Shown here: positions 676 through 56,915 of the stretch, piece after piece
How positions within the stretch are numbered: the first letter of the stretch is position 1
How the letters are laid out: every line of letters begins with the position of its first letter
DNA from: a virus
Taxonomy: Duplodnaviria > Caudoviricetes
Virus record (IMG/VR): IMGVR_UViG_3300028805_003982
Reading direction: 5' to 3' (one strand)
Length of the DNA: 64,000 nucleotides
Notes under the pieces: generated by a model
Databases searched by the model: none
Seen by the model: only the letters and a program-made list of their open reading frames with translations
What the model was told of the DNA's origin: nothing
Program-made: the position numbers and the translations under genes

Positions 676-729
676 AGGAGCCGTGTTTTCCTAATAAAAG
701 ATAACAAGGACGAAAAATGACGTTATAAT
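674..729 (+). promoter_or_regulatory. Class A promoter motif, copy 1 (upstream of large ncRNA)
   Basis: AAAGGAGCCGTGTTTTCCTA-ataa-AAGAT-N19-GTTATAAT; same spacing as copies at 2815 and 45048; TATAAT at 724-729. Confidence 0.75.
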
Positions 730-742
730 AGTTGTACTCGAT

Positions 743-756
743 TGAACTTTGAAAAC
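743..756 (+). promoter_or_regulatory. rrn-type boxA antitermination-like element
   Basis: TGAACTTTGAAAAC resembles Firmicute rRNA-leader boxA (GTTCTTTGAAAA), lying just after the predicted start site. Confidence 0.6.
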
Positions 757-1370
757 CTAATAATCATCAGGATAGCAGTGCATACACGTTATCTCGGTGT
801 AGAGGGGCTTATCACCCTGCCGAGACGCTGCCGGATCAGAAGAGAAGCTTTTAAGGATACTTTCCAGTTTCTCAAGCGTGCTGAACGTGAGCTTAGCACC
901 TCGTCATAGCAATGGCGTTGGCAGGCGGCGGTATGTACTGTGTGATGTTGGCGTGAACTGCTGGTGGCCGATGTAATAGACGCCAGCTCGAAAGGCTGGA
1001 AGAATCCGAATGCCCTAAGGCCGGTAACCTTAGGCACCTTTCGGAAATACCAAACAAGTCGGTTTGCCGTGAGACTGCGGAAACGCAGAGTATAACATCA
1101 GCAGGCTTCGTAAGTAGCCCAAGGCAGCAAGAACTTCAGATAATGATATTACATTTGCGAAATGTGATAGGAATTTTTCTGAATGATATGGGTGAAAGCT
1201 GGGGGTATCAATCCCTTACAGGCTCGGGCGATATCAGCCTGCGCAAGAAGGACGGTGTAGCTGACCGTTTCTCAGACTTGCGTACCTGTCGGCGCGATAA
1301 ACCGTAGCACAGATAGTATGCTGAACAAAAGGCAAGCGTGTGTGTACTGTTATCCTGATGGTTGTCGGGT
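755..1370 (+). ncRNA. Large ornate structured ncRNA, most consistent with ROOL RNA
   Basis: 755-788 pairs with 1337-1370 (34 bp, one mismatch, several G-U pairs favouring the + strand); many internal helices (792-798/819-825, 943-949/1094-1100, 1035-1040/1275-1280, TGCCCTAAGG/CCTTAGGCA, CTGCG-GAAA-CGCAG) with GNRA-type loops; no credible ORF; promoter upstream and terminator downstream. Family name is from size and architecture only. Confidence 0.75.
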
Positions 1371-1476
1371 GGTATAATATACTGAAAACGAAAGACGGCC
1401 AAGGCTCTGAAAAACCAAAATAATTATGAATAGCCTTAAAGCGAATTGCGTGCACAAGGTCGTTTTAGTTGATATT

Positions 1477-1514
1477 ACAGACTCCGAAAGATCTTCTTTT
1501 GGGGTCTGTTTTTT
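1477..1514 (+). terminator. Rho-independent terminator ending the ncRNA unit
   Basis: ACAGACTCCGAAAGA-tct-TCTTTTGGGGTCTGT followed by a T-tract. Confidence 0.85.
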
Positions 1515-1555
1515 ATTTGGGGTTAATTACGGCCACGGAAAGGAAGGGGATAGGA

Positions 1556-2224
1556 GTGAGCAGCGATTTTGCGAGAATAAGAGCAGAGGTGCTTCAAGAC
1601 GTTGAGCTGAATCCGGATTATTATGAACTGTTGTCGGATCGGGCAGATATGATAGAGTTCATAGATAAGACAGATGGGATATTTGATTATCATTATGTTA
1701 TTACAGATACGGATGTAATAACCCCGGATTGGCTGAAAAGCAAGACTTTGGTTACTCCGGATGCCCGGGAGTTATTTAGAACAGATCTGTCGAACCTCTT
1801 TGAACTGGTGGATAAATACATCCCTAAAGAAGCATATCAGACATTGCAGGAATTGATATTTATCACTAATTCGGATGCGGATTATGAATATCTCTATAAT
1901 GATAGCGAACTTTATATCAGGAAATTACTGGAAGAACATGCCTTGCCGGATGAGGAACAATTGGGTTTGTCTTGGACCGCAGAAGGGGTAGTTATCATTA
2001 ATCTGGGGAAGATCGAGACTTCAGTCAAAGAGATGACAGAGGAAGGGGCTTTCGGTTCTACTCTGGAACGGGTTGTGTTGGATACCATTGCACACGAGTT
2101 CAGACATCTTCAGCAAACTAATCCGTATGTATCACAAGAGATCAAAGACACGTTCCTCGATGACATAGAGATAGATGCAGAGGTGTTTGCAAGAAATATC
2201 AACTATGGGGAGTTGGGATTATAG
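1556..2224 (+). CDS. Putative zincin-like metallopeptidase (HExxH)
   Basis: IAHEFRH followed by EIDAEVFA; GTG 1556 after a purine-rich SD (the track start at 1469 overlaps the terminator). Confidence 0.65.
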   Translation: MSSDFARIRAEVLQDVELNPDYYELLSDRADMIEFIDKTDGIFDYHYVITDTDVITPDWLKSKTLVTPDARELFRTDLSNLFELVDKYIPKEAYQTLQELIFITNSDADYEYLYNDSELYIRKLLEEHALPDEEQLGLSWTAEGVVIINLGKIETSVKEMTEEGAFGSTLERVVLDTIAHEFRHLQQTNPYVSQEIKDTFLDDIEIDAEVFARNINYGELGL

Positions 2225-2876: not shown

Positions 2877-2975
2877 TGTTACTATGCTACATGATTCCCA
2901 ACGAAGCAGATGTAGATGTAGTGGAATACTCCTTTTTAATTGATGGTCGGTGCCGGAAACGGCATCGATCTTTTT
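2877..2975 (+). ncRNA. Candidate ~100-nt small RNA with exposed anti-SD
   Basis: Hairpin (2880-2893/2910-2923), unpaired GAATACTCCTTTTT, then terminator GGTCGGTGCCG-GAAA-CGGCATCGATC-TTTTT. Confidence 0.55.
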
Positions 2976-2993
2976 ATGTTGAAGGGACAACGT

Positions 2994-3641
2994 ATGGATT
3001 GGTATGAGTTTGACAGTTTGGAAAGACAAAAAGAGTATTTTCCAGAGTTGCAGGCTGCTGTTGATTCCGAATACGGGCAGCACCTTTGCTATCCTTTAAG
3101 GGAAAATATCTATAATGCCTTTAAATTAACACCTGTTAGCAGTATCCGATGTGTGATACTTGGACAAGACCCGTATCACGGGCCGGGGCAGGCGACCGGA
3201 TTGGCTTTTTCGGTTCCGCATAGTTTCCCGTTGCCGCCGTCTCTTCGTAACATCTATAAAGAGATAGAAGCGGATACAGGTAAAAAGACGGTGAATCCTG
3301 ACGGGTGCCTTGAACCCTGGGCCTCTCAGGGTGTATTGCTCTTGAATTCATCTTTGTCGGTCAGGGCACACGAACCCGGGTCTCATGCAGATCTGGGGTG
3401 GGGGACCTATACCGATAATTTCATTAAGATGCTGGGCGCCTTGGACCAAGATATCGTCTATATGTTATGGGGTAAGTTCGCAAGGAGTAAAAAGCAGCTT
3501 ATAACAAACAAAAGGCAGTTGATCCTGGAAGCGCCTCACCCGTCTCTGTTTTCGGCAAACCGGGGATTTTTCGGATGCGGGCATTTCAGTAAATGTAATG
3601 AATATCTTGAATCAAAAGGTCAGAACAAAATAATCTGGTAA
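2994..3641 (+). CDS. ung: Uracil-DNA glycosylase family 1
   Basis: ILGQDPYH, GLAFSV, PPSLRNIYKE, WASQGVLLLN, LWG, HPS motifs; ATG 2994 after GAAGGGA. Confidence 0.95.
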   Translation: MDWYEFDSLERQKEYFPELQAAVDSEYGQHLCYPLRENIYNAFKLTPVSSIRCVILGQDPYHGPGQATGLAFSVPHSFPLPPSLRNIYKEIEADTGKKTVNPDGCLEPWASQGVLLLNSSLSVRAHEPGSHADLGWGTYTDNFIKMLGALDQDIVYMLWGKFARSKKQLITNKRQLILEAPHPSLFSANRGFFGCGHFSKCNEYLESKGQNKIIW

Positions 3642-4096: not shown

Positions 4097-5377
4097 ATGC
4101 ACAAATTCAAGAACTTTCTCGGCATACTGTGTGCTGTTGCATTGATGGCAGGCTCAGTATTCAGCGTATCTGCAGCCGAGATAGGAGAGGGCACCGCTGA
4201 GACCAATGATACGGAGATCCTGATCCCCAAGAGCATCAATGTCACAAATCCGGAGGACATTGAGGTTTGGACACCTGCGATCACGTATTCATATGAGATC
4301 AGAGGTGTTGAGAGCAGATTGGGTTCTACGGTAACTGATACGGAAGGCCGCAGGGTATCCGTAAGGCCTGGACCTGATGGCGGTGCAGTGTTGCCCACGG
4401 GCGTTGTTGAGTTTGACTCACAGAAGGTCATGGCAAACACTGCTGCCAACGAAGTTGAGGATAATCTTGTGGTTAATGTCGATCTCAGCAAGTTTGAACA
4501 GCCAGGCATTTATCGTTATGAGATCAAGGACGTAACAGACTTGGGTCTTCTCCGGGCAGCAGGTATCGAAAGAGCCGAAGATTATGATCTTATCAGATAT
4601 CTTGATGTTTATATCATCAGGGATCAGGATACGGGAAATCTTAAGGTTTCCGGCTACGCTTTGACTAACGGATATGTACTCGATCCCGAGCATACGGGGT
4701 ACCCGGTAATATCCATTGAAGCATGGGAGACCGACAAATCTTCAGGTTATGTACCACGGTCAGAGATCTTTGACGACTATACGTATGATATCGACGGCAC
4801 CGCACAGATGACCGATACGTATGATACGTATAACGTTAAGATTACTAAGCAGGTTACAGGCGATATGGGTGACACGTCTCACGAGTTCCCCTTCGTAGTT
4901 GATGTAACCGGACAGGATGAGATCAAGTACAGCCACGGTAAGTGCGCAGCAGATCAGGCAGATCCTGACATTACAGAAGATACTAATACAGATTCCATCA
5001 GCACAACGATGAAGAACACCGAGTATTACGTACTTCAGGGATTGTCCCCTCTGGCCACGGTTGCTGTTGAAGAGACCAACGACACTTATGACGGTTATAC
5101 AGTAACGGTAACTGACAAGGACGGAACTGAAGTAGTCCCCGCAACAGACGCTGTGGCCTTTAACGGCACGGTTAAAGTTGATGCCTTCCAGGTATCAGAC
5201 TACGAAACTCCGGATGTTGAGGCTTCTGCAAATGCCAAAGACGAGCTTACATACGACAATCATCTGGACAACGTATCTCCTACAGGCGTTATCCTTGCGT
5301 CAATGCCTTTCGTAGGCTTGGCAGGTGTTGGCGGCACGATGCTCGTTTTGGGCAAGAGAAAGAAAAAGGAAGACTAA
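4097..5377 (+). CDS. Backbone pilin (Spy0128/FCT-like), sortase B substrate
   Basis: Signal peptide, FEQPGIYRY motif, K/E/N isopeptide-type pattern, VSPTG + hydrophobic helix + basic tail. Confidence 0.85.
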   Translation: MHKFKNFLGILCAVALMAGSVFSVSAAEIGEGTAETNDTEILIPKSINVTNPEDIEVWTPAITYSYEIRGVESRLGSTVTDTEGRRVSVRPGPDGGAVLPTGVVEFDSQKVMANTAANEVEDNLVVNVDLSKFEQPGIYRYEIKDVTDLGLLRAAGIERAEDYDLIRYLDVYIIRDQDTGNLKVSGYALTNGYVLDPEHTGYPVISIEAWETDKSSGYVPRSEIFDDYTYDIDGTAQMTDTYDTYNVKITKQVTGDMGDTSHEFPFVVDVTGQDEIKYSHGKCAADQADPDITEDTNTDSISTTMKNTEYYVLQGLSPLATVAVEETNDTYDGYTVTVTDKDGTEVVPATDAVAFNGTVKVDAFQVSDYETPDVEASANAKDELTYDNHLDNVSPTGVILASMPFVGLAGVGGTMLVLGKRKKKED

Positions 5378-5380
5378 GTT

Positions 5381-5950
5381 ATGAGCGATGAACTTACGGG
5401 AGCTACAACTGATATGACAGAGGTTAACGCCCCCGGTAAGTGGAAGACCTTCTGGTCGTCCTGGGCAGATGAAATAAAGCGGTTAGTCCGCAATGTTTTT
5501 GTCGTCCTTGTCGGGCTCTGGATTATGTTCGGCTTTATAGTAGGAATCGGCAGGGTCGGTTCAGTCGAGATGTCCCCGACCGTGGGCTTGGGCGATATCG
5601 TAATGTATTCCAGACTCGACAAGGCACCCCGGACAAATGAGGTAATCGTTTTTGATATGGAAGCCTCCGAATGTATTGGCCGCGTAATCGCCGGACCCGG
5701 TGATAAGGTAGACATTTCCGAGCAAGGTCAGCTGTTCGTGAACGGCCATCTTGTTCAAGAGAGCAGGATCACAGATCCCACATATCCGTATCCTGAATAT
5801 GTTTCGTATCCTTTAACTGTAGCTCCTGACAACTATTTTGTTTTGGGGGATAACAGGAAGTCCGGTGTGGACAGCAGATATTACGGAACGGTTCCGAAAG
5901 ACCAGATCAAGGGAACACTTATAACACTTATCAGGCACAACAATTTTTAA
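5381..5950 (+). CDS. SipA/LepA-like signal peptidase I homolog (likely inactive pilus chaperone)
   Basis: S26 motifs GDNR..DSRYYG; catalytic Ser/Lys positions read E (VEMSPT) and G (IGRVI). Confidence 0.85.
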   Translation: MSDELTGATTDMTEVNAPGKWKTFWSSWADEIKRLVRNVFVVLVGLWIMFGFIVGIGRVGSVEMSPTVGLGDIVMYSRLDKAPRTNEVIVFDMEASECIGRVIAGPGDKVDISEQGQLFVNGHLVQESRITDPTYPYPEYVSYPLTVAPDNYFVLGDNRKSGVDSRYYGTVPKDQIKGTLITLIRHNNF

Positions 5951-5971
5951 GGTTAGAGAAAGGGAACAAAC

Positions 5972-7105
5972 ATGTCCTTAGCAGCATTTTTCAAATTGAG
6001 TAATCTTGCGACCAACGCGCTCGCTACAGTAACAGCGGTATCCGTTATCGGATTCTCCGGTTATATGGTGTACGACAACTACATGGCGCAGAATAAGGCT
6101 TATGGATATGATCTGTTATCTTATAAACCGTCTGTCGAAGAAAATACCATCTCAATGCAGGAGTTGTATGATCTGAACCCGGATATTTGCGGCTGGATCA
6201 CGATCGATGATACACATATAGATTATCCGATAGTTCATTCTGACGATGATCTGTACTATGTAAACAGAGACGCGACAGGTCAGCCTTCACTTACGGGTTC
6301 CATCTATCTGCAGGCTAAAAATGAATCGGATTTTACGGATTCTTACAATCTTTTGTATGGCCATCATGTTGACGGCGGCGCAATGTTCGGGGATCTTTCC
6401 CTGTTCCGTGACGCCGACTTCTTTAAGAAACATACTGAAGGTACTCTGATCACTTTGAATAAAGCGTATTCCATAGATATCATTGCTTGCGTCAGCACTA
6501 ATGCTTACTGTAAGTGCGTGTATGACAGGACTAAGCTTGACAAGGCTTCATACGAAGAGCTTATTGCAGACCCTGAAGTCTTTGTAATGAATCAGAATGC
6601 CCGCAGTTTGGATTCGGCAGTCAAGTATCTTGCTCTTTCAACCTGTTACGGTGTTTCGACTGACGGAAGAACCGTTGTCATCTGTAAGATCACTGAGATC
6701 CCTGTTCCGGTCGATCCGCCCAAGCCTGATCCTAAGCCTCCGAAGGTCGTTAAGACCGGTGAGACATACCAGGTAGGCTGGGGCATTATCAACGTAGCAG
6801 CAGTCTTTATGACTTTGCTTACTGCGGTTCCTTATCTTAAGTTCTTTAAGGACGATAAGAAGAAGATATACGCAAGGCTCGGTTTTGCGGCAAGCATCGT
6901 AGCTACTATATCCGCGGCACTCGTATTCTTTAGGGTGGAGGAACTGTCCGGAGCAATGATGATAACAGACAGATTTACTTTCATTTTCCTTTTGTTCTTC
7001 GGAGTTGCATTACTCGCAGAAGAACTGATAACCAAGGTTTACACAAAAAAGAACAAAAATAAAGGCATTTCCATTAAGGAGGAAAAAAGATCATGGGAAG
7101 TTTAA
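5972..7105 (+). CDS. srtB: Class B sortase with C-terminal 3-TM extension
   Basis: LYGHH, LSTC, GR; Pro-rich linker then three hydrophobic segments. Confidence 0.9.
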   Translation: MSLAAFFKLSNLATNALATVTAVSVIGFSGYMVYDNYMAQNKAYGYDLLSYKPSVEENTISMQELYDLNPDICGWITIDDTHIDYPIVHSDDDLYYVNRDATGQPSLTGSIYLQAKNESDFTDSYNLLYGHHVDGGAMFGDLSLFRDADFFKKHTEGTLITLNKAYSIDIIACVSTNAYCKCVYDRTKLDKASYEELIADPEVFVMNQNARSLDSAVKYLALSTCYGVSTDGRTVVICKITEIPVPVDPPKPDPKPPKVVKTGETYQVGWGIINVAAVFMTLLTAVPYLKFFKDDKKKIYARLGFAASIVATISAALVFFRVEELSGAMMITDRFTFIFLLFFGVALLAEELITKVYTKKNKNKGISIKEEKRSWEV

Positions 7106-8382
7106 AACTTAAGAGAGTGGCAACCCCTATTCTTGCAGCGGCCATTATGGCCAGTATGGCTTCGGTTTCATTTGCCGCAGACATTGGTGCGAACGGTATC
7201 GTTGAAACGTCGGATACGGCTATCAACATTCCTAAGTCGGTGACACTGTATAACGACGGATTTAACAAGTCCTATCTCCCGGCTATCACATTCAATTTCA
7301 CCATCGCTCCTGCGACATTGACCGAAGAGGTACACATTACTGACTCTAACGGTCATACCGTTGCAGTGCAGTCCGGTCCTGCAAATTCCATTTCCAATCC
7401 TACTGCAACCGCAGTATTTGAGGAACAGGAAGTCGTTGATACAGGTGCTACTCTTGACGAGACAGTAAGGAAGAACATGACTTGGAATGTTGATCTTACC
7501 AAGTTTACAAAGCCCGGTGTTTACCGTTATACGATCACTGACGTAACACCTATCTCTACTTTGTATGCTGCAGGCCTTGAGAGACCTTCGACATACGATA
7601 CGACAAGAGAACTTGATGTTTATATCAAGAGGGATGCTACTACAGGTAATCTCGTAGTTGGCGGATATACTCTCCACGATGACATCACCGGTGATATCAC
7701 TCCCGCAACCGAGAAGGACCCCGGCTTCGTGCCTGAGAGCTTCAACCCCGGTAACATTTCTAACGGATATGATACTTATACCACATATAACTATCAGGTT
7801 CAGAAGAACATTACCGGTGAAATGGCTGATCTGAGTCACAAGTTCCCGTTCGCAATATCTTTGAACGACGGCGGTTCCGTTGCAGGTCTTGACTATTACG
7901 GAGCAGCAGGTAACGCAACTCCTGCATACAGTAATGCAGCAACGATTAACACAACCCTTGGAAACAGTGATGTTTACCACGTTTACGCTCTTAATCCCAA
8001 GGCTTCTGTAAGTGTTGTCGAGACTAATGATACAAATGATTCATACGATCTTTATGTAACTACTGTTAATGCTTCCGGCAGTTCAACAGATGCTCAGGCT
8101 GAAGCGCTTGCCGCAGGTGCTGCATCAACAGCCAGAACAGGTAACGTATCAACATACGCTACAGCCAATTCAGCGTCCAACGTATCAGGCGAAGCTCAGG
8201 CCGATCTGCAGTCCAACGGTTTCAGAAATGACCTTCCCGGCATCATCACAACTGGCGTTGTACTGAAGTCTCTTCCTTTCGTAGCTCTTGCAGGTATCGG
8301 CGGTCTTATGTTTGCACTTTCCAGAAAGAGCAAGAAGAACAAGGTAGCAGAAGATATTCAGGGCGATTCTTCTGAGATGTAA
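7093..8382 (+). CDS. Backbone pilin (FCT-like)
   Basis: Paralog of 4097; FTKPGVYRY; IITTG sorting motif + TM + basic tail. Confidence 0.85.
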   Translation: MGSLKLKRVATPILAAAIMASMASVSFAADIGANGIVETSDTAINIPKSVTLYNDGFNKSYLPAITFNFTIAPATLTEEVHITDSNGHTVAVQSGPANSISNPTATAVFEEQEVVDTGATLDETVRKNMTWNVDLTKFTKPGVYRYTITDVTPISTLYAAGLERPSTYDTTRELDVYIKRDATTGNLVVGGYTLHDDITGDITPATEKDPGFVPESFNPGNISNGYDTYTTYNYQVQKNITGEMADLSHKFPFAISLNDGGSVAGLDYYGAAGNATPAYSNAATINTTLGNSDVYHVYALNPKASVSVVETNDTNDSYDLYVTTVNASGSSTDAQAEALAAGAASTARTGNVSTYATANSASNVSGEAQADLQSNGFRNDLPGIITTGVVLKSLPFVALAGIGGLMFALSRKSKKNKVAEDIQGDSSEM

Positions 8383-8423
8383 TTCAAAAAATAAATTAAA
8401 AAGGGGTTTAACAAGGTAACTTT

Positions 8424-8936
8424 ATGAAAGAAAAAATAATGGCGTTTTTCAAAAAATATGATGCACTTCCGCGTATATTCCTGAAACTGGCCATTTTCGC
8501 AACGCTTCTTTATATCGCATTCGGGTTCATAATAGGTGTTTCTATTATGAACTCGGACGATATGAAGCCTAATGTCAAATTAAGGGACATAGTTGTTTAT
8601 TCAAGGATAGATAAAGATTACCTGAACAGAACGGCCGTCGTGTACGAGGTTAACAATAACACGTTGGTCGGAAGAATCGTAGCTTTACCCGGCAGCCATG
8701 TGATCATTGATGAAAAAGGCAATGTTAACGTAGACGGTATTACGATCCAGGAAAGCGAAGTTTATATGAGTAAAAAGCAGGAAGGGTTCTCAACGGACGT
8801 AACATTAGGTCCTGATGAGTATTTCATTCTTGCAGACAACAGGCAGGTCGGTATCGACAGCAGATACGTAGGGCCTGTCAGTAGCAGCGCTATCAAGGGA
8901 GAAACCTTAATAATAATAAGAAGGTATGGTATATGA
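8424..8936 (+). CDS. SipA/LepA-like signal peptidase I homolog
   Basis: DDMKPN and VGRIV (D/G at the catalytic positions, as in S. pyogenes SipA), ADNR..DSRY. Confidence 0.85.
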   Translation: MKEKIMAFFKKYDALPRIFLKLAIFATLLYIAFGFIIGVSIMNSDDMKPNVKLRDIVVYSRIDKDYLNRTAVVYEVNNNTLVGRIVALPGSHVIIDEKGNVNVDGITIQESEVYMSKKQEGFSTDVTLGPDEYFILADNRQVGIDSRYVGPVSSSAIKGETLIIIRRYGI

Positions 8937-10042
8937 ACAAGGGACAGAAAGCTCTTGGTGTTACGGACAATGTTATCACAAAGATGCTTAGGATCTGTTC
9001 TGTTATCCTCTTGATAGGCTCCTGCTATATGTTCTTTGACGTTTACTTCCTCAATAAGGGGGCTTCATCTGAGGTTGTGGCAGAACGCTATAAACCTGAG
9101 ATCACCGTTTCTGATGAAGGAAAGAGGATAGTTGACATGACCGAGCTTAAACAGATCAACCCCGATATCAAGGGTTGGCTTACGATGGATGATACAGGAA
9201 TAGACTATCCGGTTCTTCAGGGCGATGACGATTATGAGTACTTAAACCGTGACATGTACGGTAATTCCTGTCTTACAGGTTCGCTGTACTTCAGGTCGAT
9301 AGATACTACCGAGAACGCAGATGCCGACTACCGTATGATCTACGGGCATCACATGGACGCGAGTTCCATGTTTGGCTGTCTCGATAAGTACATTGACGCA
9401 GAATACTTCAGCAGCCATAAGACAGGTACGCTCATAACCGATCATGGTATCTGGAATCTTGAGGCAGTTGCCGTACTTTATACGCACGCGTATAACAACA
9501 CTTTTTATTACGGCAGGTCTTTTCCATGTATCGTCAGGGGCTTGGAAACTAAGCATATTCAGACGATCAGCGGAAACCTAAGTGAAGCAGATGCTCCTAT
9601 CCTGATCTTATCGACTTGTTATGAGATCAAGCCGAACGGCAGGCTTCTTGTTGTCCTTAAGATGACGCCTGCTGAAGACGTGGTAGTTGACAGCGGTTCT
9701 GCTACTGATGAAGACATTTCGATCAAAGACCTGAGAATGGGTCAGATCCAAGAGGGGGTAAAACCTACATGGAGTGTAATGAATATTGTCTTCGTATTTA
9801 TTACAGTCCTGTGTAGTATCACGATGACTGTTGACGCTGCTTTAAGAAAACAGCTTAAGCAGGTTGACGGCGTTGTTTGGGCGTTGATCACGCCACTTTC
9901 GATAGTTTTGTTCTTTGTAGGGCAGAAATTATCTGGAAGGGGGACTTTTGTTGATAAGTATACGATTGTTTTTGCCGGAATAGCGATCGCGGCTTCCGCA
10001 CTTGCTGCGTATACTGTCAAACGGAAAGGAAAAGCGATATGA
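8933..10042 (+). CDS. srtB: Class B sortase with C-terminal 3-TM extension
   Basis: IYGHHM, LSTC, GR; C-terminal hydrophobic segments. Confidence 0.9.
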   Translation: MNKGQKALGVTDNVITKMLRICSVILLIGSCYMFFDVYFLNKGASSEVVAERYKPEITVSDEGKRIVDMTELKQINPDIKGWLTMDDTGIDYPVLQGDDDYEYLNRDMYGNSCLTGSLYFRSIDTTENADADYRMIYGHHMDASSMFGCLDKYIDAEYFSSHKTGTLITDHGIWNLEAVAVLYTHAYNNTFYYGRSFPCIVRGLETKHIQTISGNLSEADAPILILSTCYEIKPNGRLLVVLKMTPAEDVVVDSGSATDEDISIKDLRMGQIQEGVKPTWSVMNIVFVFITVLCSITMTVDAALRKQLKQVDGVVWALITPLSIVLFFVGQKLSGRGTFVDKYTIVFAGIAIAASALAAYTVKRKGKAI

Positions 10043-17873: not shown

Positions 17874-18773
17874 ATGTCAGATGTGATTTTGATCATTGTT
17901 AGTGTGATAGCCGTTATAGCCTCTATAACGGCTGTTATGCTGTTAATAAGATGCAGAAAGTATCTGTTCGGTAAAGAGCTTGATCCGGACGAAAAGCTTA
18001 AGCTGAAAGAAGCCGCTATGCAGGCTCGTATAGACGAGCTCGGCAAGCAATATGATACCAAATTTGCCGATCTGGACAAACGTTTTAAGACTATGGAAGA
18101 GACTGCTCAAAAGCAGTTTAATGCGAAACGGGAACAGAACGAGCAGGAATACCTGAAAAAATGCCTTGAACAACAGGCAAGCCTTACGAAGCTGCAAACA
18201 GAAAACGCTGAGAAGGTCGAGAAGATCAAAGCGGATCTGAAGTTTTATGAAGACCTGCAATCTTCTGTTGTAACTAATTATCTGGAAGCAGAGAAAAAGG
18301 CTAAGGATCGGGATTTTCACAGGATCATGCTTGAAGGTTCTGAGCAGTCTGATATAGAAGTGCTTCGTCCGGTGGCAGAGAAGATAAGTAAACCGATCAT
18401 TTTGTATAAGCTCATATATGAGATTTACTATAAGCCCAAGCTTGATACGATGTTTAAGCAGGTTCTCGGCACCTCTGAAGGGGGCGGGGGCATATACAAG
18501 ATAACCAACATCAAAGACGGGCGGGTATATATCGGAAGGGCTACGAAGTTCCTTGACCGCTGGAGGCAGCACGCTAAATGCGGCACTGGAGCAGATAACG
18601 GGGCTCAGATCAATGTCCGGTTATACGACTCTATGAAAAAAGAAGGGATAGAAAACTTTACTTTTGAGGTTCTGGACGAATGTCCGGCAGAAGAACAGCC
18701 TGCAAGAGAGAAGTATTGGATCGATTATTATCGTTCTATGGAGTATGGATACAACATTAAGAGTGGCGGCTGA
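17874..18773 (+). CDS. Membrane-anchored coiled-coil GIY-YIG nuclease
   Basis: N-terminal TM, K/E/Q-rich coiled coil, GIYKITN..YIG..RWRQH..FEVL..REKYWI..GYN. Confidence 0.85.
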   Translation: MSDVILIIVSVIAVIASITAVMLLIRCRKYLFGKELDPDEKLKLKEAAMQARIDELGKQYDTKFADLDKRFKTMEETAQKQFNAKREQNEQEYLKKCLEQQASLTKLQTENAEKVEKIKADLKFYEDLQSSVVTNYLEAEKKAKDRDFHRIMLEGSEQSDIEVLRPVAEKISKPIILYKLIYEIYYKPKLDTMFKQVLGTSEGGGGIYKITNIKDGRVYIGRATKFLDRWRQHAKCGTGADNGAQINVRLYDSMKKEGIENFTFEVLDECPAEEQPAREKYWIDYYRSMEYGYNIKSGG

Positions 18774-31427: not shown

Positions 31428-32756
31428 ATGAAGAAAACAAGACAGAGAATTGCGAAGACGCTTATTGCTTGTATGATGGCCGGAACGCTTGCCGTACCTG
31501 CTTTCGCGGCTGAAGTGCCTTCAACCGGTGTTATTGAAACAGATGACACCACGGTCTCCATTTCAAAGGCTTTCCTTGTCCTGAATGACGGCTACACCAA
31601 GTCGTACAGCCCTGACATCACTTTTACTTTCAGTGCTGCACCGGCTAACGTTGCCGCAGGTACAACGATCACGGACGAGAATGACAACACGATCACTGTT
31701 CAGGCAGGTGTTGCAGGAGGCCTTTCGTCCACATCTTCTCTTGATCTCGCATCACAAGAGGTTGTTGAGACAGACGCGGGTGCTACAGCCCTTTCAGAGG
31801 TTGTAAAAGGCACTTTTGATTTTGAGGTCGATCTGACCCAGTTTACACAGCCCGGCGTTTACCGTTATCAGATTACTGATACTACTCCTACGGCAAACCT
31901 TTATAACGCAGGTATTGTAAGACCCGATTCTTATGACACTACAAGAGAGCTTGATGTGTATATCGAGCGTGATGCAACTTCAGGTAACCTTGAAGTTAAG
32001 GGCTATGTTCTTTTGGATGAAACTCCCGGCACTATCGTTCCCGGTACACCTAAGGTTCCCGGCTATGAGATCGGCGGTGACCTTGAGAAGAAAGAGTGGT
32101 CTGAGCAGAATCCCGGCCCCGGCGGAGAGACTTCTGGCGTAGGCTACGAGGTTCTCGGCGACGATACTATGGACTCTTATACAACGTATAACATGTCTGT
32201 AGAAAAGATCGTTACAGGTAATATGGGTGATACGGATCACCAGTTCCCGTTCGCAGTTTCTTTCGAGAACAGCAACGATAACGCAACAGTACCTGCAAAT
32301 TACTATACTCAGCTGGGCAGTGTGATCGCTTCCGAGTCTTCTGATGAGGCTTCTACAGCATTGAAGCATGAGGACGTTTTCCATATCTACGGACTTAATC
32401 CTTTTGCGGTTGCAACCGTAACCGAGACTAACGATACAGCTAACGCTTATACTGTTACGTCTTCTGACGGATCTATCTCAGGCGTAGTTACCAACGCTGG
32501 CGCTGACGCAGAGACTGATCCTCTTGCAATCTCAACTTACGATACTGTCAACAGCGCTACTGATGTTTCCAATGAGGCAGATGCAGGTGATGATAATGAC
32601 CTTACCGTTACCAACAACCTTGGTATCGATACACCTACAGGCGTGCTCCTGAAGGCAGCTCCTTTTGTAGCTATCATCGGTGCTTTTGGTGCAGCTCTTG
32701 CAATCTCAAAGGCTAAGTTCGGTAAGAAGAAGACAGCTTCTGATATCGAGGAGTAA
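31428..32756 (+). CDS. Backbone pilin (FCT-like)
   Basis: Paralog of 7093 (YDTTRELDVYI.RDAT); DTPTG sorting motif. Confidence 0.85.
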   Translation: MKKTRQRIAKTLIACMMAGTLAVPAFAAEVPSTGVIETDDTTVSISKAFLVLNDGYTKSYSPDITFTFSAAPANVAAGTTITDENDNTITVQAGVAGGLSSTSSLDLASQEVVETDAGATALSEVVKGTFDFEVDLTQFTQPGVYRYQITDTTPTANLYNAGIVRPDSYDTTRELDVYIERDATSGNLEVKGYVLLDETPGTIVPGTPKVPGYEIGGDLEKKEWSEQNPGPGGETSGVGYEVLGDDTMDSYTTYNMSVEKIVTGNMGDTDHQFPFAVSFENSNDNATVPANYYTQLGSVIASESSDEASTALKHEDVFHIYGLNPFAVATVTETNDTANAYTVTSSDGSISGVVTNAGADAETDPLAISTYDTVNSATDVSNEADAGDDNDLTVTNNLGIDTPTGVLLKAAPFVAIIGAFGAALAISKAKFGKKKTASDIEE

Positions 32757-32760
32757 TTGA

Positions 32761-33276
32761 GTGGAAGAAAAAGGCGGATTTAAGACCAAGAAGTTCAAGA
32801 TAAACGGGCTCGTTGAGTTTGGAATAAAATTAGCGGCCTTCTTGTTAGCTCTCTTTATTACTTTCGTCTTTGTCATCGGTGTGGTGTCCGCGAGATCGGA
32901 TTCGATGTCTCCTAATATCAAATTTCGCGACACTGTTGTTTATTCCAGGATGAATCATGAGTATTTTTTAAATGATTCTGTTGTTTATAAATATAATGAT
33001 GAAATCTATATAGCAAGAATAGCGGGTACCCCCGGTGATCACATAAAAATAGACGCGCACGGGAACCTATACAGGAACGAACATCTTGTATATGACACTC
33101 ATGTGTATATCGGTTCTACTGTTTCCCCTGAATGCGACGTTACTCTGCCGGAAGGCGAATACTTTGTATTGGCCGACAATAGAGAAACAGTCGATGACAG
33201 CAGAACACAGGGTACGGTTTCCGAAAAGGACATTAAAGGATCTGTACTCTTCATATTAAGAAGGTTCGAAGTATGA
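32761..33276 (+). CDS. SipA/LepA-like signal peptidase I homolog
   Basis: SDSMSPN keeps Ser but the catalytic Lys reads A (IARIA); ADNR..DSR. Confidence 0.85.
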   Translation: MEEKGGFKTKKFKINGLVEFGIKLAAFLLALFITFVFVIGVVSARSDSMSPNIKFRDTVVYSRMNHEYFLNDSVVYKYNDEIYIARIAGTPGDHIKIDAHGNLYRNEHLVYDTHVYIGSTVSPECDVTLPEGEYFVLADNRETVDDSRTQGTVSEKDIKGSVLFILRRFEV

Positions 33277-33983
33277 AGACGGCAACCAAGGTTCTGGAAA
33301 CCATCATCGAGATAGTATGCTTTTGTGCCATCTCGTGCGCGATCTATTTTCTTCTTGAAAACTATAGGATCGAACGTCAGGCAGAAAATTATGCTTCAGA
33401 GTATAAGGAACTGCTTACGGAAGATGAAAACGGAAGAATGTCTTTGGAGGAGCTTCAAAAGCTCAATCCTGACGCAGCCGCATGGATCGAGATATACGAT
33501 ACTACTCTGGATTATCCGATCATGAAGGGGAGACCGGAGTATACATATCTTAATCGCGATTTCCTGGGGAATAACTGTATAACCGGGTCACTTTATATCC
33601 GTAACATAGATGACCGATATTTTACGGATGAATATGAGATCGTGTACGGACATCATATGGCAAACGGGGGGATGCTCGGTTGCCTTGACTATTTTGCCGA
33701 TCCTGCTTACTTACAAGCACATAATAAAGGTCAACTTATAACTGAAAAAGAAACTTACGATGTCGAAGTGTTGACTCTGATAATTACGGATTCATACAAC
33801 GACACTTTATATACAAATAACGAGCGCGAGTATTTCTATAAGGCTATGGAAAATGCTACGGTGCTCACGGGGAGCCTGCCGGAAAGGGATAAAGAAGGCA
33901 CTTTGCTTTTGTTTTCCACCTGTTCGGCTTCCGGAAATACAGATAGGACAATATTGATAACGCGACTTACGAAGCAGATGTAA
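33273..33983 (+). CDS. srtB: Class B sortase
   Basis: VYGHHM, FSTC, DR. Confidence 0.9.
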   Translation: MKTATKVLETIIEIVCFCAISCAIYFLLENYRIERQAENYASEYKELLTEDENGRMSLEELQKLNPDAAAWIEIYDTTLDYPIMKGRPEYTYLNRDFLGNNCITGSLYIRNIDDRYFTDEYEIVYGHHMANGGMLGCLDYFADPAYLQAHNKGQLITEKETYDVEVLTLIITDSYNDTLYTNNEREYFYKAMENATVLTGSLPERDKEGTLLLFSTCSASGNTDRTILITRLTKQM

Positions 33984-33995
33984 GGAGACAGTAAA

Positions 33996-36900
33996 ATGAG
34001 AACCTCAGTACTTAAAAAAGCAGCAGTATTTATGATACCTATGATGTTATTTAACTTTTTAGGTACCAGTGTTGGACTTGCTTATGAGACATTTGACGGG
34101 GAAGAGCCGACAGAAATAGTCGAACCTCAAAACGCAGGATCTGAAGAACAGGTTCCGGCAGAACCTCAAGAAGCTATGAGCAAACAGGACAAAGTTACTG
34201 CTGAGCCTGAAAAAGATCCTGTTGATAATGAAGCGGACAAAACTGATCCGGCAACGGATTCTCCTAAAACAGACCCAGCTTCTGATAATACAACAGAGCC
34301 GGCTGCCGATACTGGCACGCCTTCTGAAAATGCGGATAACCCGACTGATGAACCTACCGAGGTGTCTTCAGAAGCTCCCGCAGCAACCGAGGAATCTTCA
34401 GCCGTTACAGGAGAACCCGAAGAGACGCCGAGAAAGGCTCCTTTGAGAGGCGCGTCCACTATAGCAACTGCGGGTGTTGACGCTTATGCTATTCTTTACG
34501 ATGACGGTGAGCTCGTATTCCAGAAGGGCAATGAGCCTGAAGAGGGAAGAACAGCAGCTGAGATCTGGGAAGTTAATCCTTCTGAGGATATAGCAAGCGA
34601 TGAGTATGTCGGTTGGCATGACAATGATGATGTTCAGGTTATTACCTTTAAGGATAAACTTGAAGGCGTTACCAGTCTGCGAGAGTTTTTCTATTCACTT
34701 GACAATCTGACAGCTTTTAATAATCTTTCTTATTTAGACACGTCCGCGGTTACTGCGTTTAATAGTGTTTTTTATAGTCTGCCTTTAGTTACTGAGATAG
34801 ATCTTACCGGTTGGGACACTTCGTCCGGCGAAACCTTTTCCAATATGATCACTTCTTGTGGCAGCATTACCAGTTTGGATCTGTCGATGCTTGATATTTC
34901 AAACGCTTCTGCTATTAGTACGTTGGTTCTTGCTTGTTCACAATTAAAGACAATTAATTGTGATGGCTGGGATCTCCGTTCGGTTCCATCTCTGTCTGCG
35001 GCCAGCGGTATATTTCAAAGCATGTCTCTTGATTCTATTTCGATGCGGAATTGGACCAATGTTCCTGACGGATCACACATCTTCGGCAGGGGGTGGGGTG
35101 CCGCCAAGTCTCTGGATGTAACAGGCTGGCAGTTCCGTTCCAACGCAACAAGAATGGAAGGCTTTTTCTGCAGTTCTGCGATCCAGGAAATCGTAGGACT
35201 TGATACTTGGGACGTTTCCAATTTTACATATATGGGCGCGGCCTTCCAGGGGTGCGGAGCTTCTGATCTGAGTGGTATCACAAACTGGGATACAGGCAAT
35301 GTAACTGATACGAACAATATGTTCAATGATTGCAGCAATCTGACATCTCTTGATCTGTCCGGTTGGGATACACATAGTCTTGCCACAATGTCATCTATGT
35401 TTTACAACAACTCTAATCTTACATCTCTTGATTTAAGTAATTGGGATTTAAGAAGTCTTGATCCGTCCAGATACCCTACCGGGGGTGCTTTAAGCATACC
35501 TTCATTAAAAACACTTACTTGTAAGAATTGGAGTCATGTTCCCGGAATGAACTCTATGTGGTTTGGCAGAGGCATGAGTTTAGGCGGTGCCTCTCTTGAC
35601 TATATTGATGTTACAGGCTGGGACCTGTCGGGAACAACAAGCATTGAGACGCTCTTTGCCAATATGAACGTTAAGGAAATAAGAGGGCTTGGCACTTGGA
35701 CCAATACGTCCGGCATTACTAACGTTAATCAGGCTTTTGCTTATATTAACAGTTTGTCTTCACTTGATCTTTCAGGCCTTGACCTCAGTGGTGTTACTGA
35801 TGCGAGCCAGTTGTTCAATACTTCATCTGCATTGGTTAGCATCGATCTCGGTTCTAATGATTTTGCCAACAATACTAATTTTAATGGCATGTTTACTGAA
35901 TGCTCAAAGCTGCAGACTTTAGATCTCAGTAATGTTGATTTTTTATCAGCTACGGATACGGACGGTATGTTCCTGGGTACAACGGCACTTAAAACAATTA
36001 CTTTACCCGCTTCTTATAAGCTGGTTGGTTCTGGATCTGAGTTGGACGCCGGGCTTACCGATTCTTGGGGTAATATTAATACCAAGGTTTGCTATGATGC
36101 GGCAGATCTTACAAAAAACTTTACGTCCGACATGGCAGGGACTTATGAAAAGATAATCCAGACGGTAAATCTCCATTATAGCGGCGGCAGCAGTTCTGCC
36201 TTTGTAGATGCTATTTACCTTTCTGAAAATACACGTTTCGGGGATCTTCCTGAGACTGTAACAAGAGGAACCGATGAGTTCTTAGGCTGGTATAATGATG
36301 ACGGTTCTGTTAAATATACAAACTCTTCAAGATCTTTTCCTTCTGATCTTTATGCTGTATATGGTCATGAGCCTGATGTTGCAACAGCAGGCGTTGATGC
36401 ATATGCGATCCTTTACTCAGATAACACCTTTGTCATCCAGAAGGGTAATACACCTGATGAGCAGCATGGCACCGTTACCAGTATCTGGGAGATTCCTGTT
36501 TCCGGTGGATTCCCCGCATGGTATAACTACGTTTCCAATGTAACTAAGGTTGAGGTTAAGGACAGACTGGTTGAAAGAACGGCACTTACAGCTTTTTTTG
36601 CAAACTTTAATTCTTGTACGGTATTTGAAAACCTTGATTACATAGATCTGTCTAAAGTCACAACTGTTGACAGGATGTTTATGAATAACAGGGCTGTTTC
36701 TTCTTATGAAGGAACGGGTATCGAGAATTGGGATATATCAAACGTCGGTAATTTTGAATATCTGTTTAACAGTAATAATCTTGTAACCACAATGCCAGAT
36801 CTTTCTAACTGGGTCTTTAAGGCAAATGCCAGAGTTTCTAACATGCTTCCTTCCGGTCTTGTTTCAGTAGGGGGCCTTGGCAACTGTGACATTTCTAATC

Positions 36901-48106: not shown

Positions 48107-49090
48107 ATGGCTACCAGTAAACTTTGGGCAGTACACAACAACGTGAGTTCAACGCTTTCGTATGTTGAAGATAAAGAGAAGACACAGGCTTCTCTATCTG
48201 AACTTGTCCCAAATGTTACTGATGGCATCAAGTGCGAGGGTGGAAGGCTTTTAGCAGGTATTAACTGCGATCCTGCGACGGCCGTCGAGGAGATGAACCG
48301 GATCAAAGAAAAGTTCGGTAAGACTGACGGAGTAACTGCATATCACGGGTATATCAGTTTCGGACCGAAAGACGGCTTATCTCCTGTTGATGTGCTGGAG
48401 GTATCACGTCAGATTGCTAAAGAAATGTGGGGTGACCGCTTTCAGGTGCTCTTAGGCGTTCATACCAACACCGGAACGCTGCATTGTCATTTTGTCGTTA
48501 ACTCCGTTTCGTTTGTTGACGGAATGAAAGCCGCGGATAATGAACACAATTATTACTATATGAGAAATGTGGTAGACAGGATCTGCAAAGAAAATAATCT
48601 GTCCATTGTGGAACCGTATTCAAAGCCGAATATCCCGGACGGGGACGTTGCGTACGCAATAGCTTTGGCTTTGTCGGAAGGAGCGGGGGACGTAGAAAAG
48701 ACCGCTGTTGAATTAGCCAAGTTCGGTATCAAAGTAGTTGGCGAGGATAAAGTCAGAGCGCCTAACGGGAAAACGTATTATACGACGTCGTTTGACGATT
48801 CATTTCATGTAGAACGTCCGGAAACCAAACCTGCCATCAATTCGATCGGCGTTGGGGAAACACCTGTCTTGGATCTCAGTAATATGGGTAAGCCTATGGC
48901 AGAAGAGGATAAACAGATCAAGCCTGTCGGCGGCAAGACCGCAAGCACCAATGTTTCCGGCAGTAAGCATGATATCGCTCACGGTAGGGATCTGGGTAGT
49001 GAAGAGGTTCAGCCTTCCGTCTCTGAATCCGAGCCGGGCATTACGGACGACGCTTCGGACGATCTTTTAAAGTCTGGGCTGAATCCGTAA
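48107..49090 (+). CDS. MOBP-type relaxase (short)
   Basis: MATSKLW..., SYVEDKEKT (catalytic Tyr), AYHGYISF, HTNTGTLHCHFVVNSV (HUH). Confidence 0.9.
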   Translation: MATSKLWAVHNNVSSTLSYVEDKEKTQASLSELVPNVTDGIKCEGGRLLAGINCDPATAVEEMNRIKEKFGKTDGVTAYHGYISFGPKDGLSPVDVLEVSRQIAKEMWGDRFQVLLGVHTNTGTLHCHFVVNSVSFVDGMKAADNEHNYYYMRNVVDRICKENNLSIVEPYSKPNIPDGDVAYAIALALSEGAGDVEKTAVELAKFGIKVVGEDKVRAPNGKTYYTTSFDDSFHVERPETKPAINSIGVGETPVLDLSNMGKPMAEEDKQIKPVGGKTASTNVSGSKHDIAHGRDLGSEEVQPSVSESEPGITDDASDDLLKSGLNP

Positions 49091-56456: not shown

Positions 56457-56915
56457 ATGACCGTAAAAGTTAACAAAGAAATCACTAATTATAAAGAAAA
56501 CTTTTTTAACGGCTTGACCAAAAGAGCAACTATCACATTGGTGATCATAGCGGTTTGTATGTTAGCCGGGTTTTATGTTAATTCGGTATATGTCGGCGGT
56601 GAATACTTTCAGTATTTTATGATGGTCGTCGCTACCATAACTGCTTTTGTGGGATTCTACTACAAGGACGGTATCTGGGGCGGAACATATCTGTTCCTGC
56701 TTTACAGACAGATCAGGCTTAAGCAACCGCTTAATTGCGCCGACCGTTATTCCAAGGTGCGTGCCAGACGCCTTTTGGATAACAAACGCGGCAAGCCCAC
56801 TATCAAGCGCGTTGAGATACCCCAGGAGCTTTTAGAAGAAGCTATGCGGGCTACAAGTAAAGATCTTGGGGCCGATAATAATGAAACAGGTCAAAAGGCA
56901 GTTTCAGGGGTTTAA
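56457..56915 (+). CDS. prgI: PrgI family protein (VirB3-like)
   Basis: VKVNKEITNYKENFFNGLTKR, two TMs, GFYYKDG. Confidence 0.85.
   Translation: MTVKVNKEITNYKENFFNGLTKRATITLVIIAVCMLAGFYVNSVYVGGEYFQYFMMVVATITAFVGFYYKDGIWGGTYLFLLYRQIRLKQPLNCADRYSKVRARRLLDNKRGKPTIKRVEIPQELLEEAMRATSKDLGADNNETGQKAVSGV

What the first reader, a model, noticed from the sequence alone, without database searches (positions are those of the whole stretch)
743..1370. ROOL-like giant structured RNA with rRNA-style boxA on a conjugative element
Seen: a 34-bp terminal helix closing ~615 nt, many internal helices with GNRA-type loops, G-U pairs fixing the + strand, and a boxA-like TGAACTTTGAAAAC overlapping the 5' arm. Established: ROOL RNAs are ~600-nt ornate RNAs of unknown function from rumen and Firmicute sequences, often near phage or tRNA genes. 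Inference: it is transcribed with Nus antitermination like rRNA, and the long stem could be an RNase III substrate. Here it sits among pilus and T4SS genes, with no tRNA visible in the window.
Basis: partly seen in the sequence, partly recalled or inferred. Interest (0 to 1): 0.85.

Follow-up and report, generated by a model that had tools for sequence, protein, structure and literature searches.

The report
ROOL cage RNA with rRNA-type boxA
The stretch is a genuine gene for ROOL, a known large folded RNA that builds protein-free cages and whose job is unknown; it begins with the same short signal that ribosomal RNA operons use to recruit transcription helpers, and that signal also heads ROOL genes in other lineages, which the papers I searched do not mention.

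Summary
Window 769-1353 (+) is a full-length ROOL RNA (Rfam RF03087, 241 bits against a cut-off of 99, E 1e-53). With its extended terminal helix it spans 755-1370. It keeps 77 of 90 consensus base pairs, 33 of them through compensatory changes. It looks like a stand-alone unit: promoter-like site 701-729, leader, ROOL, terminator 1477-1509. It lies on a 235-kb element with relaxase, VirD4, VirB4, PrgI and sortase-pilus genes. There is no tRNA in the 64 kb.

ROOL on plasmid-like elements is not new: I confirmed ROOL on pMP118 and on a 244-kb T4SS-bearing contig, and this scan noted one on a conjugative gut plasmid (e1-5760382).

The 34-bp helix is ordinary for ROOL. "Many GNRA loops" is overstated: there are 2-3.

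The boxA claim held up better than expected:
- The 15-mer at 742-756 is identical to the leader boxA of five rRNA operons in a Clostridia genome.
- Exact rRNA-operon boxA 12-mers occur 15 times in 4.2 Mb of fetched DNA, and 10 of those sit at the 5' edge of a ROOL.
- No paper found links boxA to ROOL.

Nus-factor function is inferred, not shown. The RNase III idea is untested.

The parts
701..729 (+). Sigma-70-type promoter-like site (ATAACA, 17 nt, TATAAT). It predicts a start near 735-737.
   Evidence: 10 of 12 matches, and the only + strand promoter-like site in 400-1800. Prediction only; no transcript data.
742..756 (+). rRNA-operon-type boxA, TTGAACTTTGAAAAC, in the 5' leader and abutting the 5' arm of P1.
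   Evidence: Identical 15-mer lies 94 nt upstream of 16S in five rrn operons of genome G144. 11 of 12 match to the NusB-binding B. subtilis boxA AUGAUCUUUGAAA (PMC13753749). Unpaired in the fold. Recurs at ROOL 5' edges.
755..788 (+). 5' arm of terminal helix P1, extended beyond the Rfam model.
   Evidence: 34 positions, 27 WC + 6 GU + 1 mismatch with 1337-1370.
769..1353 (+). ROOL RNA core as matched by the Rfam covariance model (positions 1-574 of 574).
   Evidence: 241.4 bits, gathering 99.1, E 1.1e-53, not truncated; 77 of 90 consensus pairs kept, 33 by compensatory change.
1122..1176 (+). Variable 'linker' segment of ROOL, poorly conserved in the family.
   Evidence: alignment (low-conservation loop, about model positions 345-395). 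alignment shows length variation here. Kretsch et al. describe this linker as disordered and inside the cage.
1177..1198 (+). Family signature TTCTGAATGATATGGGTGAAAG. Its UCUGA can pair with UCAGA at 1272-1276.
   Evidence: The pairing is my own reading of the sequence. It corresponds to the pseudoknot proposed between the linker flank and J17/18. Both sides are invariant, so covariation cannot test it.
1337..1370 (+). 3' arm of terminal helix P1.
1371..1476 (+). 3' trailer between P1 and the terminator. No significant structure. Starts with an extended -10-like TGGTATAAT (1370-1378).
   Evidence: MFE -17.6, z -0.73; no Rfam family. The -10 is read.
1477..1519 (+). Intrinsic terminator: 15-bp stem, 3-nt loop, T run.
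   Evidence: the segment containing it has z -3.1.

Best explanation
SHOWN. Window 755-1370 (+) is a divergent but complete member of the ROOL RNA family. The 15-mer at 742-756 is identical to an rRNA-operon leader boxA of a Clostridia genome.

INFERRED from sequence. It is made as its own untranslated transcript, from a promoter at 701-729 to an intrinsic terminator at 1477-1509.

INFERRED by homology. The RNA folds into the family architecture, closed by a 34-bp P1 helix. Like the solved ROOLs, it assembles into an RNA-only cage (hexamer or octamer). What the cage does is not known for any ROOL.

INFERRED mechanism. The first about 20 nt of the transcript carry the boxA, placed directly against the 5' arm of P1. 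I propose that NusB-S10 bind this boxA on the nascent RNA and convert RNA polymerase into an rRNA-type antitermination/chaperone complex. This would (i) protect the 0.6-kb untranslated RNA from premature, Rho-type termination, and (ii) keep the 5' arm tethered near the RNA exit until the 3' arm emerges about 550 nt later, helping P1 close. That is the model proposed for the 16S leader-trailer helix.

The result would be rRNA-like output of a cage RNA that serves the mobile element.
For: ROOL identity:
- 241 bits, full length.
- no competing family.
- 90 consensus pairs, 74 with compensatory changes among 13 ROOLs. The window keeps 77 of them, 33 compensatory.
- strand-specific fold.

Transcription unit.

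boxA:
- the exact 15-mer is the 16S leader boxA in five operons of G144, one of them directly behind a tRNA array.
- natural rrn boxA variants in Clostridia.
- B. subtilis AUGAUCUUUGAAA binds NusB.
- the critical C of the consensus is present here.
- 4 of 21 other ROOL lineages have a <=1-mismatch boxA in the 82 nt before P2, against 0.12% of 10,687 control windows (P 1.3e-8). None on the antisense strand or inside the core.
- 0 of 17,847 control windows hold an exact match.
- 10 of the 15 exact rrn-boxA 12-mers in 4.16 Mb sit at a ROOL 5' edge.

Tethering model: PMC4807359.

Cage assembly of ROOLs and rRNA-level abundance.
Against: - No transcript, protein-binding or mutational data exist for this locus.
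- No close relative of this particular ROOL was found, so conservation of its own leader cannot be checked.
- Most ROOL lineages lack the motif at the 5' edge: 16 of 22 clusters, pMP118, and the large gut-phage group.
- In several lineages the motif is itself the 5' strand of P1, so it would be base-paired in the mature RNA.
- No boxB-like hairpin precedes it here.
- Rho matters less in many Gram-positive bacteria.
- L131 and L164 may share the motif by descent.
Confidence: 0.7

Rival explanations
1. The RNA is a ROOL, but the boxA-like words at ROOL 5' edges are not Nus-factor sites. They would be a processing or 5'-end maturation determinant that releases ROOL from tRNA or leader precursors. 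Alternatively they are sequence inherited when ROOL cassettes recombined with host rRNA/tRNA operons.
For: In L194, L235, L013 and L073 the motif follows a tRNA 3' end within a few nt, where a cleavage signal would sit. In G144 one rrn operon has the same tRNA-boxA junction, a possible donor arrangement. In L131, L164, L229, L009 and L068 the motif is paired inside P1.
Against: The motif spectrum at ROOL edges tracks the spectrum of genuine rrn boxA variants letter for letter. The window and L009 have it just downstream of a promoter-like -10, with no tRNA directly upstream. It is absent from tRNA-tRNA spacers of the same arrays (controls).
Confidence: 0.2
2. The promoter-boxA-ROOL unit is mainly a processive antitermination leader for the long co-directional gene array downstream. 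boxA-modified polymerase would read through the terminator at 1477-1509 into the pilus and transfer genes.
For: All large ORFs in the 64 kb are on the + strand, with monotonic GC skew. Conjugation operons often need processive antitermination (general knowledge). The rrn antitermination complex can interfere with intrinsic termination.
Against: The same boxA-ROOL junction occurs in phage tRNA arrays with unrelated downstream genes. The terminator is strong: 15-bp stem plus T run. rrn operons themselves end at intrinsic terminators (general knowledge).
Confidence: 0.07
3. The region is not an RNA gene but a DNA element of the conjugative element (oriT, single-strand initiation site or replication origin), or the boxA match is chance.
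For: Long inverted repeats occur in oriT and ssi sites. One consensus scan of the window alone was not significant.
Against: Full-length covariance-model match. G-U pairs that work on one strand only. Compensatory changes. The relaxase gene lies 47 kb away.
Confidence: 0.02

Closest known systems
ROOL RNA family (Rfam RF03087; Weinberg et al. 2017, PMC5737381; cryo-EM cages: env-120 and E. faecalis octamers, L. salivarius hexamer, PMC12286853 and PMC12990946)
   Same: Full-length model match. Same helices with compensatory changes. Same invariant blocks (AAUAGACGC, GUAUAACA, AAGUAGCCCAA, UUCUGAAUG, GGGUGAAAG, CUCAGACUU). Long P1. Size about 0.6 kb.
   Different: Much lower score than phage ROOLs (241 against 330-400 bits). 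50% G+C against about 32%. No blastn-level similarity to any ROOL fetched. No tRNA neighbours. Own promoter-like site and terminator, on a T4SS element.
The abundant lncRNA of Ligilactobacillus salivarius megaplasmid pMP118 (Cousin et al. 2017, PMC5643018), which is a ROOL
   Same: ROOL on a large plasmid rather than a phage. I confirmed the ROOL hit at 178263-178805 of NC_007930. It is followed by a small co-oriented gene. It is reported to be as abundant as 16S rRNA and very stable.
   Different: pMP118 ROOL scores 130 bits and has no boxA-like word in the 520 nt upstream that I scanned, which includes the ~220-nt intergenic gap. Its promoter was mapped 225-450 nt upstream. The plasmid is typed mobilizable, whereas the window carries a full T4SS.
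rRNA operon leader and spacer: boxA plus leader-trailer (RNase III) helix, read by the Nus-factor antitermination complex (PMC4807359, PMC10250234, PMC13753749)
   Same: Same boxA word. Same layout: promoter or tRNA, then boxA, then the upstream arm of a long-range helix enclosing a large, untranslated, highly structured RNA, ended by an intrinsic terminator.
   Different: The enclosed RNA is ROOL, not rRNA. No boxB-like hairpin or boxC was identified. Binding of NusB-S10 and any effect on transcription are untested.
GOLLD RNA (large ornate cage-forming RNA of phages and tRNA arrays)
   Same: Large, ornate, mobile-element-borne, forms RNA-only cages, function unknown.
   Different: No Rfam match other than ROOL anywhere in the window. 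GOLLD has a different fold and size.

Membership tests
ROOL RNA (RF03087) | Covariance-model score above the curated gathering threshold over the whole model | tested here: met
   241.4 bits against 99.1, model 1-574 of 574, E 1.1e-53, not truncated.
ROOL RNA (RF03087) | Consensus helices maintained, with compensatory substitutions | tested here: met
   13-sequence alignment, 90 consensus pairs, 74 with double-sided changes. The window forms 77 of 90, and 33 differ on both sides from the commonest pair.
ROOL RNA (RF03087) | Size about 580 nt with a long terminal helix P1 | tested here: met
   585 nt model span, 616 nt with P1. P1 of about 30-40 bp is seen in 14 other ROOLs.
ROOL RNA (RF03087) | Pseudoknots and tertiary contacts of the family | tested here: inconclusive
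   The UCUGA (1179-1183) / UCAGA (1272-1276) complementarity is retained, but both sides are invariant, so there is no covariation test. The palindromic AGCU loop at 1259-1262 is shared with only some ROOLs. Figures of the solved structures were not available.
ROOL RNA (RF03087) | Assembly into an RNA-only homo-oligomeric cage | not testable with these tools
   Known for env-120, E. faecalis and L. salivarius ROOLs. Needs native gel, SEC or cryo-EM for this sequence.
ROOL RNA (RF03087) | Usual setting: phage or prophage, beside tRNA genes (typical, not defining) | tested here: not met
   0 tRNAs in 64 kb. The element carries relaxase, VirD4, VirB4 and PrgI. Precedents outside phages: pMP118 and the 244-kb T4SS contig G498.
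rRNA-operon-type boxA (NusB-S10 site) | Sequence identical or near-identical to boxA of rRNA operons of related bacteria, including the critical C | tested here: met
   TTGAACTTTGAAAAC equals the 16S leader boxA in 5 operons of Clostridia genome G144. 11 of 12 match to B. subtilis boxA. 14 of 16 match to the G101 spacer boxA. The C at consensus position 4 is present.
rRNA-operon-type boxA (NusB-S10 site) | Lies in the nascent transcript, single-stranded, just upstream of the 5' arm of a long-range helix | tested here: met
   13 nt downstream of the predicted -10. Unpaired in the folds. Overlaps P1 by 2 nt. The start site is predicted, not mapped.
rRNA-operon-type boxA (NusB-S10 site) | Kept at the same place in homologous genes | tested here: met
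   Exact rrn-boxA 12-mers at the ROOL 5' edge in 5 of 22 lineages, plus L068 and L229. <=1 mismatch: P 1.3e-8. Not universal: absent from 16 of 22 clusters and from pMP118.
rRNA-operon-type boxA (NusB-S10 site) | Accompanying boxB-like hairpin and boxC | tested here: not met
   The leader 730-790 has no stable hairpin (z +0.78). boxC was not searched for lack of a Firmicute consensus.
rRNA-operon-type boxA (NusB-S10 site) | Binds NusB-S10 and changes termination or folding | not testable with these tools
   Needs EMSA or NMR, ChIP, and boxA-mutant reporters.
GOLLD, OLE and other catalogued large RNAs | Match to the family's Rfam model | tested here: not met
   no hit other than ROOL at gathering score, and nothing credible at E<=10 in 600-1600.

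The most novel reading that the evidence does not exclude
A sizeable fraction of ROOL RNAs, including this one, are built like miniature rRNA operons. An rRNA-type boxA at the 5' edge of the terminal helix would recruit the host Nus-factor antitermination/chaperone complex, giving rRNA-like output and assisted closure of the long-range helix. Mobile elements would thus tap the host's ribosomal RNA synthesis machinery to make an RNA cage. This would be the first biogenesis signal assigned to ROOL, and a non-ribosomal, non-coding client of boxA in Gram-positive bacteria.
Probability: 0.5. Interest if true: 0.72.

Novelty: new member of a known kind. Interest (0 to 1): 0.6.

Why it matters
ROOL is one of the largest bacterial RNAs without a known function. 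Its cage structures were solved in 2025, but nothing is known about how cells make it or why it can reach rRNA-like levels.

This window adds a divergent, G+C-richer, tRNA-free, promoter-driven ROOL on a Gram-positive conjugative element.

It also led to a family-level observation that I did not find in the papers searched. Genuine rRNA-operon boxA words sit at the 5' edge of ROOL in several lineages, in phages and in this conjugative element.

This gives a concrete, cheap experimental handle: NusB-S10 binding, boxA point mutants, and rho or nusB backgrounds. It would extend boxA-dependent transcription in Firmicutes, itself only recently given biochemical support, to a non-ribosomal structured RNA.

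Tried and rejected
- blastn (distant mode) of 700-1520 against PLSDB plasmids and INPHARED phages: no match.
- Exact subtype pattern in metagenome contigs: none.
- The general ROOL signature gave 51 metagenome, 27 viral and 9 genome loci, but none resembles the window beyond the signature. A close relative for leader conservation was therefore not obtained.
- The downstream 222-aa ORF has no homologue but itself, no Pfam family, and only uninformative Atlas neighbours. Its contig could not be fetched.
- Five Oscillospirales-type megaplasmids with the closest VirD4 (37-45% identity) carry no ROOL.
- ROOL was found in 2 of 101 genomes of one Clostridia order, too rare for sampling to help.
- My first boxA scan found nothing because the scanned interval stopped short of the shorter ROOLs' 5' ends. 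This was corrected.
- A degenerate boxA pattern is too loose genome-wide (62 hits in G101), so exact rrn-derived words were used instead.
- A palindromic kissing-loop test at 1256-1262 was inconclusive.
- The 3' trailer 1371-1476 is not significantly folded and matches no family, so a 'second module' is not supported by folding.
- Five freshwater viral loci with the ROOL signature are chance matches inside a 414-aa ORF.
- The idea that the 34-bp helix is exceptional is rejected.

Full report
WHAT IS THERE

An Rfam scan of the whole 64-kb window gives one hit above threshold. It is ROOL (RF03087) at 769-1353 on the + strand: 241.4 bits against a gathering score of 99.1, E 1.1e-53, covering model positions 1-574 without truncation. 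A permissive scan of 600-1600 adds nothing credible.

The terminal helix extends beyond the model. Arms 755-788 and 1337-1370 give 34 positions with 548 nt between them. They form 27 Watson-Crick pairs, 6 G-U pairs and one mismatch.

The + strand folds to -240.5 kcal/mol (z -6.4), the - strand to -186 (z -2.5). The minimum-energy fold has two GNRA tetraloops on the + strand and none on the - strand.

INDEPENDENT STRUCTURAL SUPPORT

I aligned the window's RNA with 12 other ROOLs confirmed by Rfam, including pMP118. RNAalifold predicts 90 consensus pairs, and 74 of them have compensatory double changes.

The window forms 77 of the 90 pairs. In 33 of them both nucleotides differ from the commonest pair of the other sequences.

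The window's ROOL is an outlier in sequence:
- It is 50% G+C, against about 32% for the phage copies.
- blastn aligns only the 20-40 nt around the family signature.
- It scores 241 bits, where phage ROOLs score 330-400.

TRANSCRIPTION UNIT (PREDICTED)

- The only + strand promoter-like site is ATAACA-17-TATAAT at 701-729.
- A strong intrinsic terminator lies at 1477-1509, followed by a T run.
- The 106-nt trailer between P1 and the terminator is not significantly folded (z -0.73).

SURROUNDINGS

All large ORFs are on the + strand. Pfam finds:
- sortases, DUF7601 pilin-like proteins and S26 signal peptidases in three modules;
- large LRR/DUF285 adhesins;
- a UDG-family protein;
- DUF3991-Toprim;
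- a MobA/VirD2 relaxase (48107-49090);
- VirD4 (52667-54565, 204 bits);
- PrgI (56457-56915);
- a VirB4-like ATPase (57067-59988).

There is no tRNA or tmRNA. The window comes from a 234,910-bp ENA metagenome contig. No whole genome is held for it. The closest VirD4 relatives in PLSDB (37-45% identity) are on Monoglobus, Subdoligranulum and Vescimonas megaplasmids. The host is therefore probably an Oscillospirales-like member of the Clostridia (inference).

IS THE CONTEXT NEW?

Not really.
- The abundant L. salivarius lncRNA is a ROOL on megaplasmid pMP118 (PMC5643018). I confirmed a ROOL hit at 178263-178805 of NC_007930.
- A 244-kb circular contig filed as viral in IMG/VR (G498) carries a tRNA array with ROOL. 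It also has several VirD4-like ORFs and a VirB4-like ORF 31% identical to the window's.
- The long P1 is also ordinary. Fourteen other ROOLs have about 30-40 bp terminal helices running past the Rfam model.

THE boxA QUESTION

Taken alone, TGAACTTTGAAAAC is a two-mismatch match to a consensus I remembered, and that is not significant window-wide. Three lines of data changed the picture.

First line: real boxA sequences.
- The B. subtilis rrn leader boxA that binds NusB is AUGAUCUUUGAAA (PMC13753749). The window matches 11 of its last 12 letters.
- In a Clostridia genome with five rrn operons (G101), the leader has TTGCACCTTGCAAAT after a small hairpin, and the spacer has TTGCACCTTGAAAAC.
- I searched 401 Clostridia genomes for the window's exact 15-mer, TTGAACTTTGAAAAC. 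This found a complete genome (G144) with six copies. Five of them lie 94 nt upstream of a 16S gene in the sense orientation.
- In those five operons the otherwise different upstream regions converge exactly at this word. One of them follows a tRNA array.
- The window's motif is therefore, letter for letter, a natural rrn leader boxA.
- Sampling more rrn operons gave these natural variants: TGGTCTTTGAAA, TGAACCTTGAAA, TGTACCTTGAAA, TGTACCTTGACA, TGTACTTTGAAA.

Second line: recurrence.
- I collected ROOLs with several family-signature patterns. I identified them by Rfam or by co-occurrence of family blocks, and clustered them into 22 lineages at 80% identity.
- In the 82 nt ending at helix P2, four of the 21 lineages other than the window have a word within one mismatch of three rrn boxA references.
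- Only 0.12% of 10,687 control windows from the same loci do (binomial P 1.3e-8).
- There are no such matches on the antisense strand or inside the ROOL core.
- Using nine exact rrn-derived 12-mers, 5 of 22 lineages match, against 0 of 17,847 control windows.
- Of the 15 exact occurrences in 4.16 Mb of fetched non-rRNA DNA (both strands), 10 sit at a ROOL 5' edge:
  - the window, L131, L164 and L229 (TGAACTTTGAAA);
  - L194, L154 and L167 (TGATCTTTGAAA, the B. subtilis word, directly behind a tRNA CCA end);
  - L235 and L240 (TGTACCTTGAAA);
  - L068 (TGTACCTTGACA).
- These contigs are phage-like rather than conjugative.

Third line: placement.
- The motif tracks the 5' end of P1, not a fixed distance from the core. 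It starts 21 to 49 nt before P2.
- In some lineages it is itself the 5' strand of P1.
- In the window it is unpaired and overlaps P1 by 2 nt.

LIMITS

- Most lineages lack the motif, including pMP118 and the large human-gut phage group.
- L131 and L164 may share it by descent.
- No close relative of the window's own ROOL was found.
- There is no boxB-like hairpin in the leader.
- Nothing here measures transcription or protein binding.

MECHANISM I COMMIT TO

Shown: ROOL identity, and identity of the leader word to an rrn boxA.

Inferred: the RNA is transcribed from its own promoter. NusB-S10 load on boxA and give an rRNA-type elongation complex. That complex resists premature termination on the untranslated RNA. 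It also keeps the 5' arm near the exit channel until the 3' arm appears. [quoted passage not shown]

The finished RNA would assemble into a cage, as solved ROOLs do. What the cage does for the element remains unknown for the whole family. RNase III cleavage of P1 is possible for a 34-bp duplex, but I could not test it.

LITERATURE

- No paper in the searchable library contains both 'boxA' and 'ROOL'.
- The discovery paper and the Nature structure paper mention neither boxA nor Nus factors.
- The library is incomplete, so this is absence in what was searched.
- The scan's notes include a boxA-headed large RNA on an L. salivarius phage-plasmid (e1-5753936). I did not check it.

VERDICT

- The RNA is a new, divergent member of a known family, in a setting with precedents.
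- The added value is the boxA link. It is solid as a sequence pattern across lineages, and its function remains to be tested.

Noticed in passing
window 1370-1378 and 1371-1476: An extended -10-like TGGTATAAT lies directly after the 3' arm of P1, ahead of a 106-nt trailer and the terminator. The trailer has no significant fold (z -0.73) and no Rfam match. A separate small RNA or a leader for the gene at 1556 is possible but unsupported.
   Followed up: partly
window 1556-2224: The ORF just downstream of the ROOL terminator (222 aa from GTG 1556, with a good RBS) has no Pfam family and no homologue but itself among 5.8 billion clustered proteins. pMP118 also has a small co-oriented gene (an HTH regulator) right after its ROOL.
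   Followed up: partly
window 4097-10042 and 31428-33983: Three repeated modules of DUF7601 pilin-like protein, S26 signal peptidase and sortase, next to large MucBP/LRR/Listeria-Bacteroides-repeat adhesins. One adhesin is a 3221-aa DUF285 protein (33996-43661). This is an unusually rich sortase-pilus load for a transfer element.
   Followed up: no
window 2940-3641 and 17874-18773: A UDG-superfamily protein and a GIY-YIG nuclease-domain protein are encoded among the pilus genes of the element.
   Followed up: no
L265 (G144:C1:2840488-2840502): The sixth copy of the rrn boxA 15-mer in genome G144 is not at an rRNA gene. It lies about 45 nt upstream of an RBS and ATG of a protein-coding ORF. This is a candidate boxA-controlled mRNA in a Clostridia genome.
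   Followed up: no
L023 / L038 (IMG/VR record G498, 244,052 bp, terminal repeats): This record is filed as a virus but has five matches to the VirD4 family (best 181 bits; two lie in one 821-aa ORF) and a VirB4-like ORF. It is therefore probably a conjugative megaplasmid. It carries a tRNA array with a ROOL (332 bits).
   Followed up: partly
L131 (IMG/VR record G493, 180,778 bp, terminal repeats): A complete large phage-like genome with 9 tRNA hits, a tmRNA (L131 3098-3399) and a ROOL (L131 4082-4706). The ROOL's P1 5' strand is the boxA word TGAACTTTGAAA.
   Followed up: partly
L019 2152-2224; L014 3430-3480: RAGATH-18 RNA and 6A RNA hits lie near ROOL in phage contigs.
   Followed up: no
L004, L007, L011, L018, L021: The 21-nt ROOL signature TTCTGAATGAATGGGTGAAAG occurs in five freshwater viral contigs inside a conserved 414-aa ORF. 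No Rfam hit at E<=0.01, so this is a chance match, not a ROOL.
   Followed up: yes
L013, L030, L088, L194, L235: In tRNA-linked ROOLs the neighbouring tRNA abuts P1 within a few nucleotides on one or both sides. There, ROOL ends are probably set by tRNA processing enzymes, unlike the promoter-driven copy in the window.
   Followed up: partly
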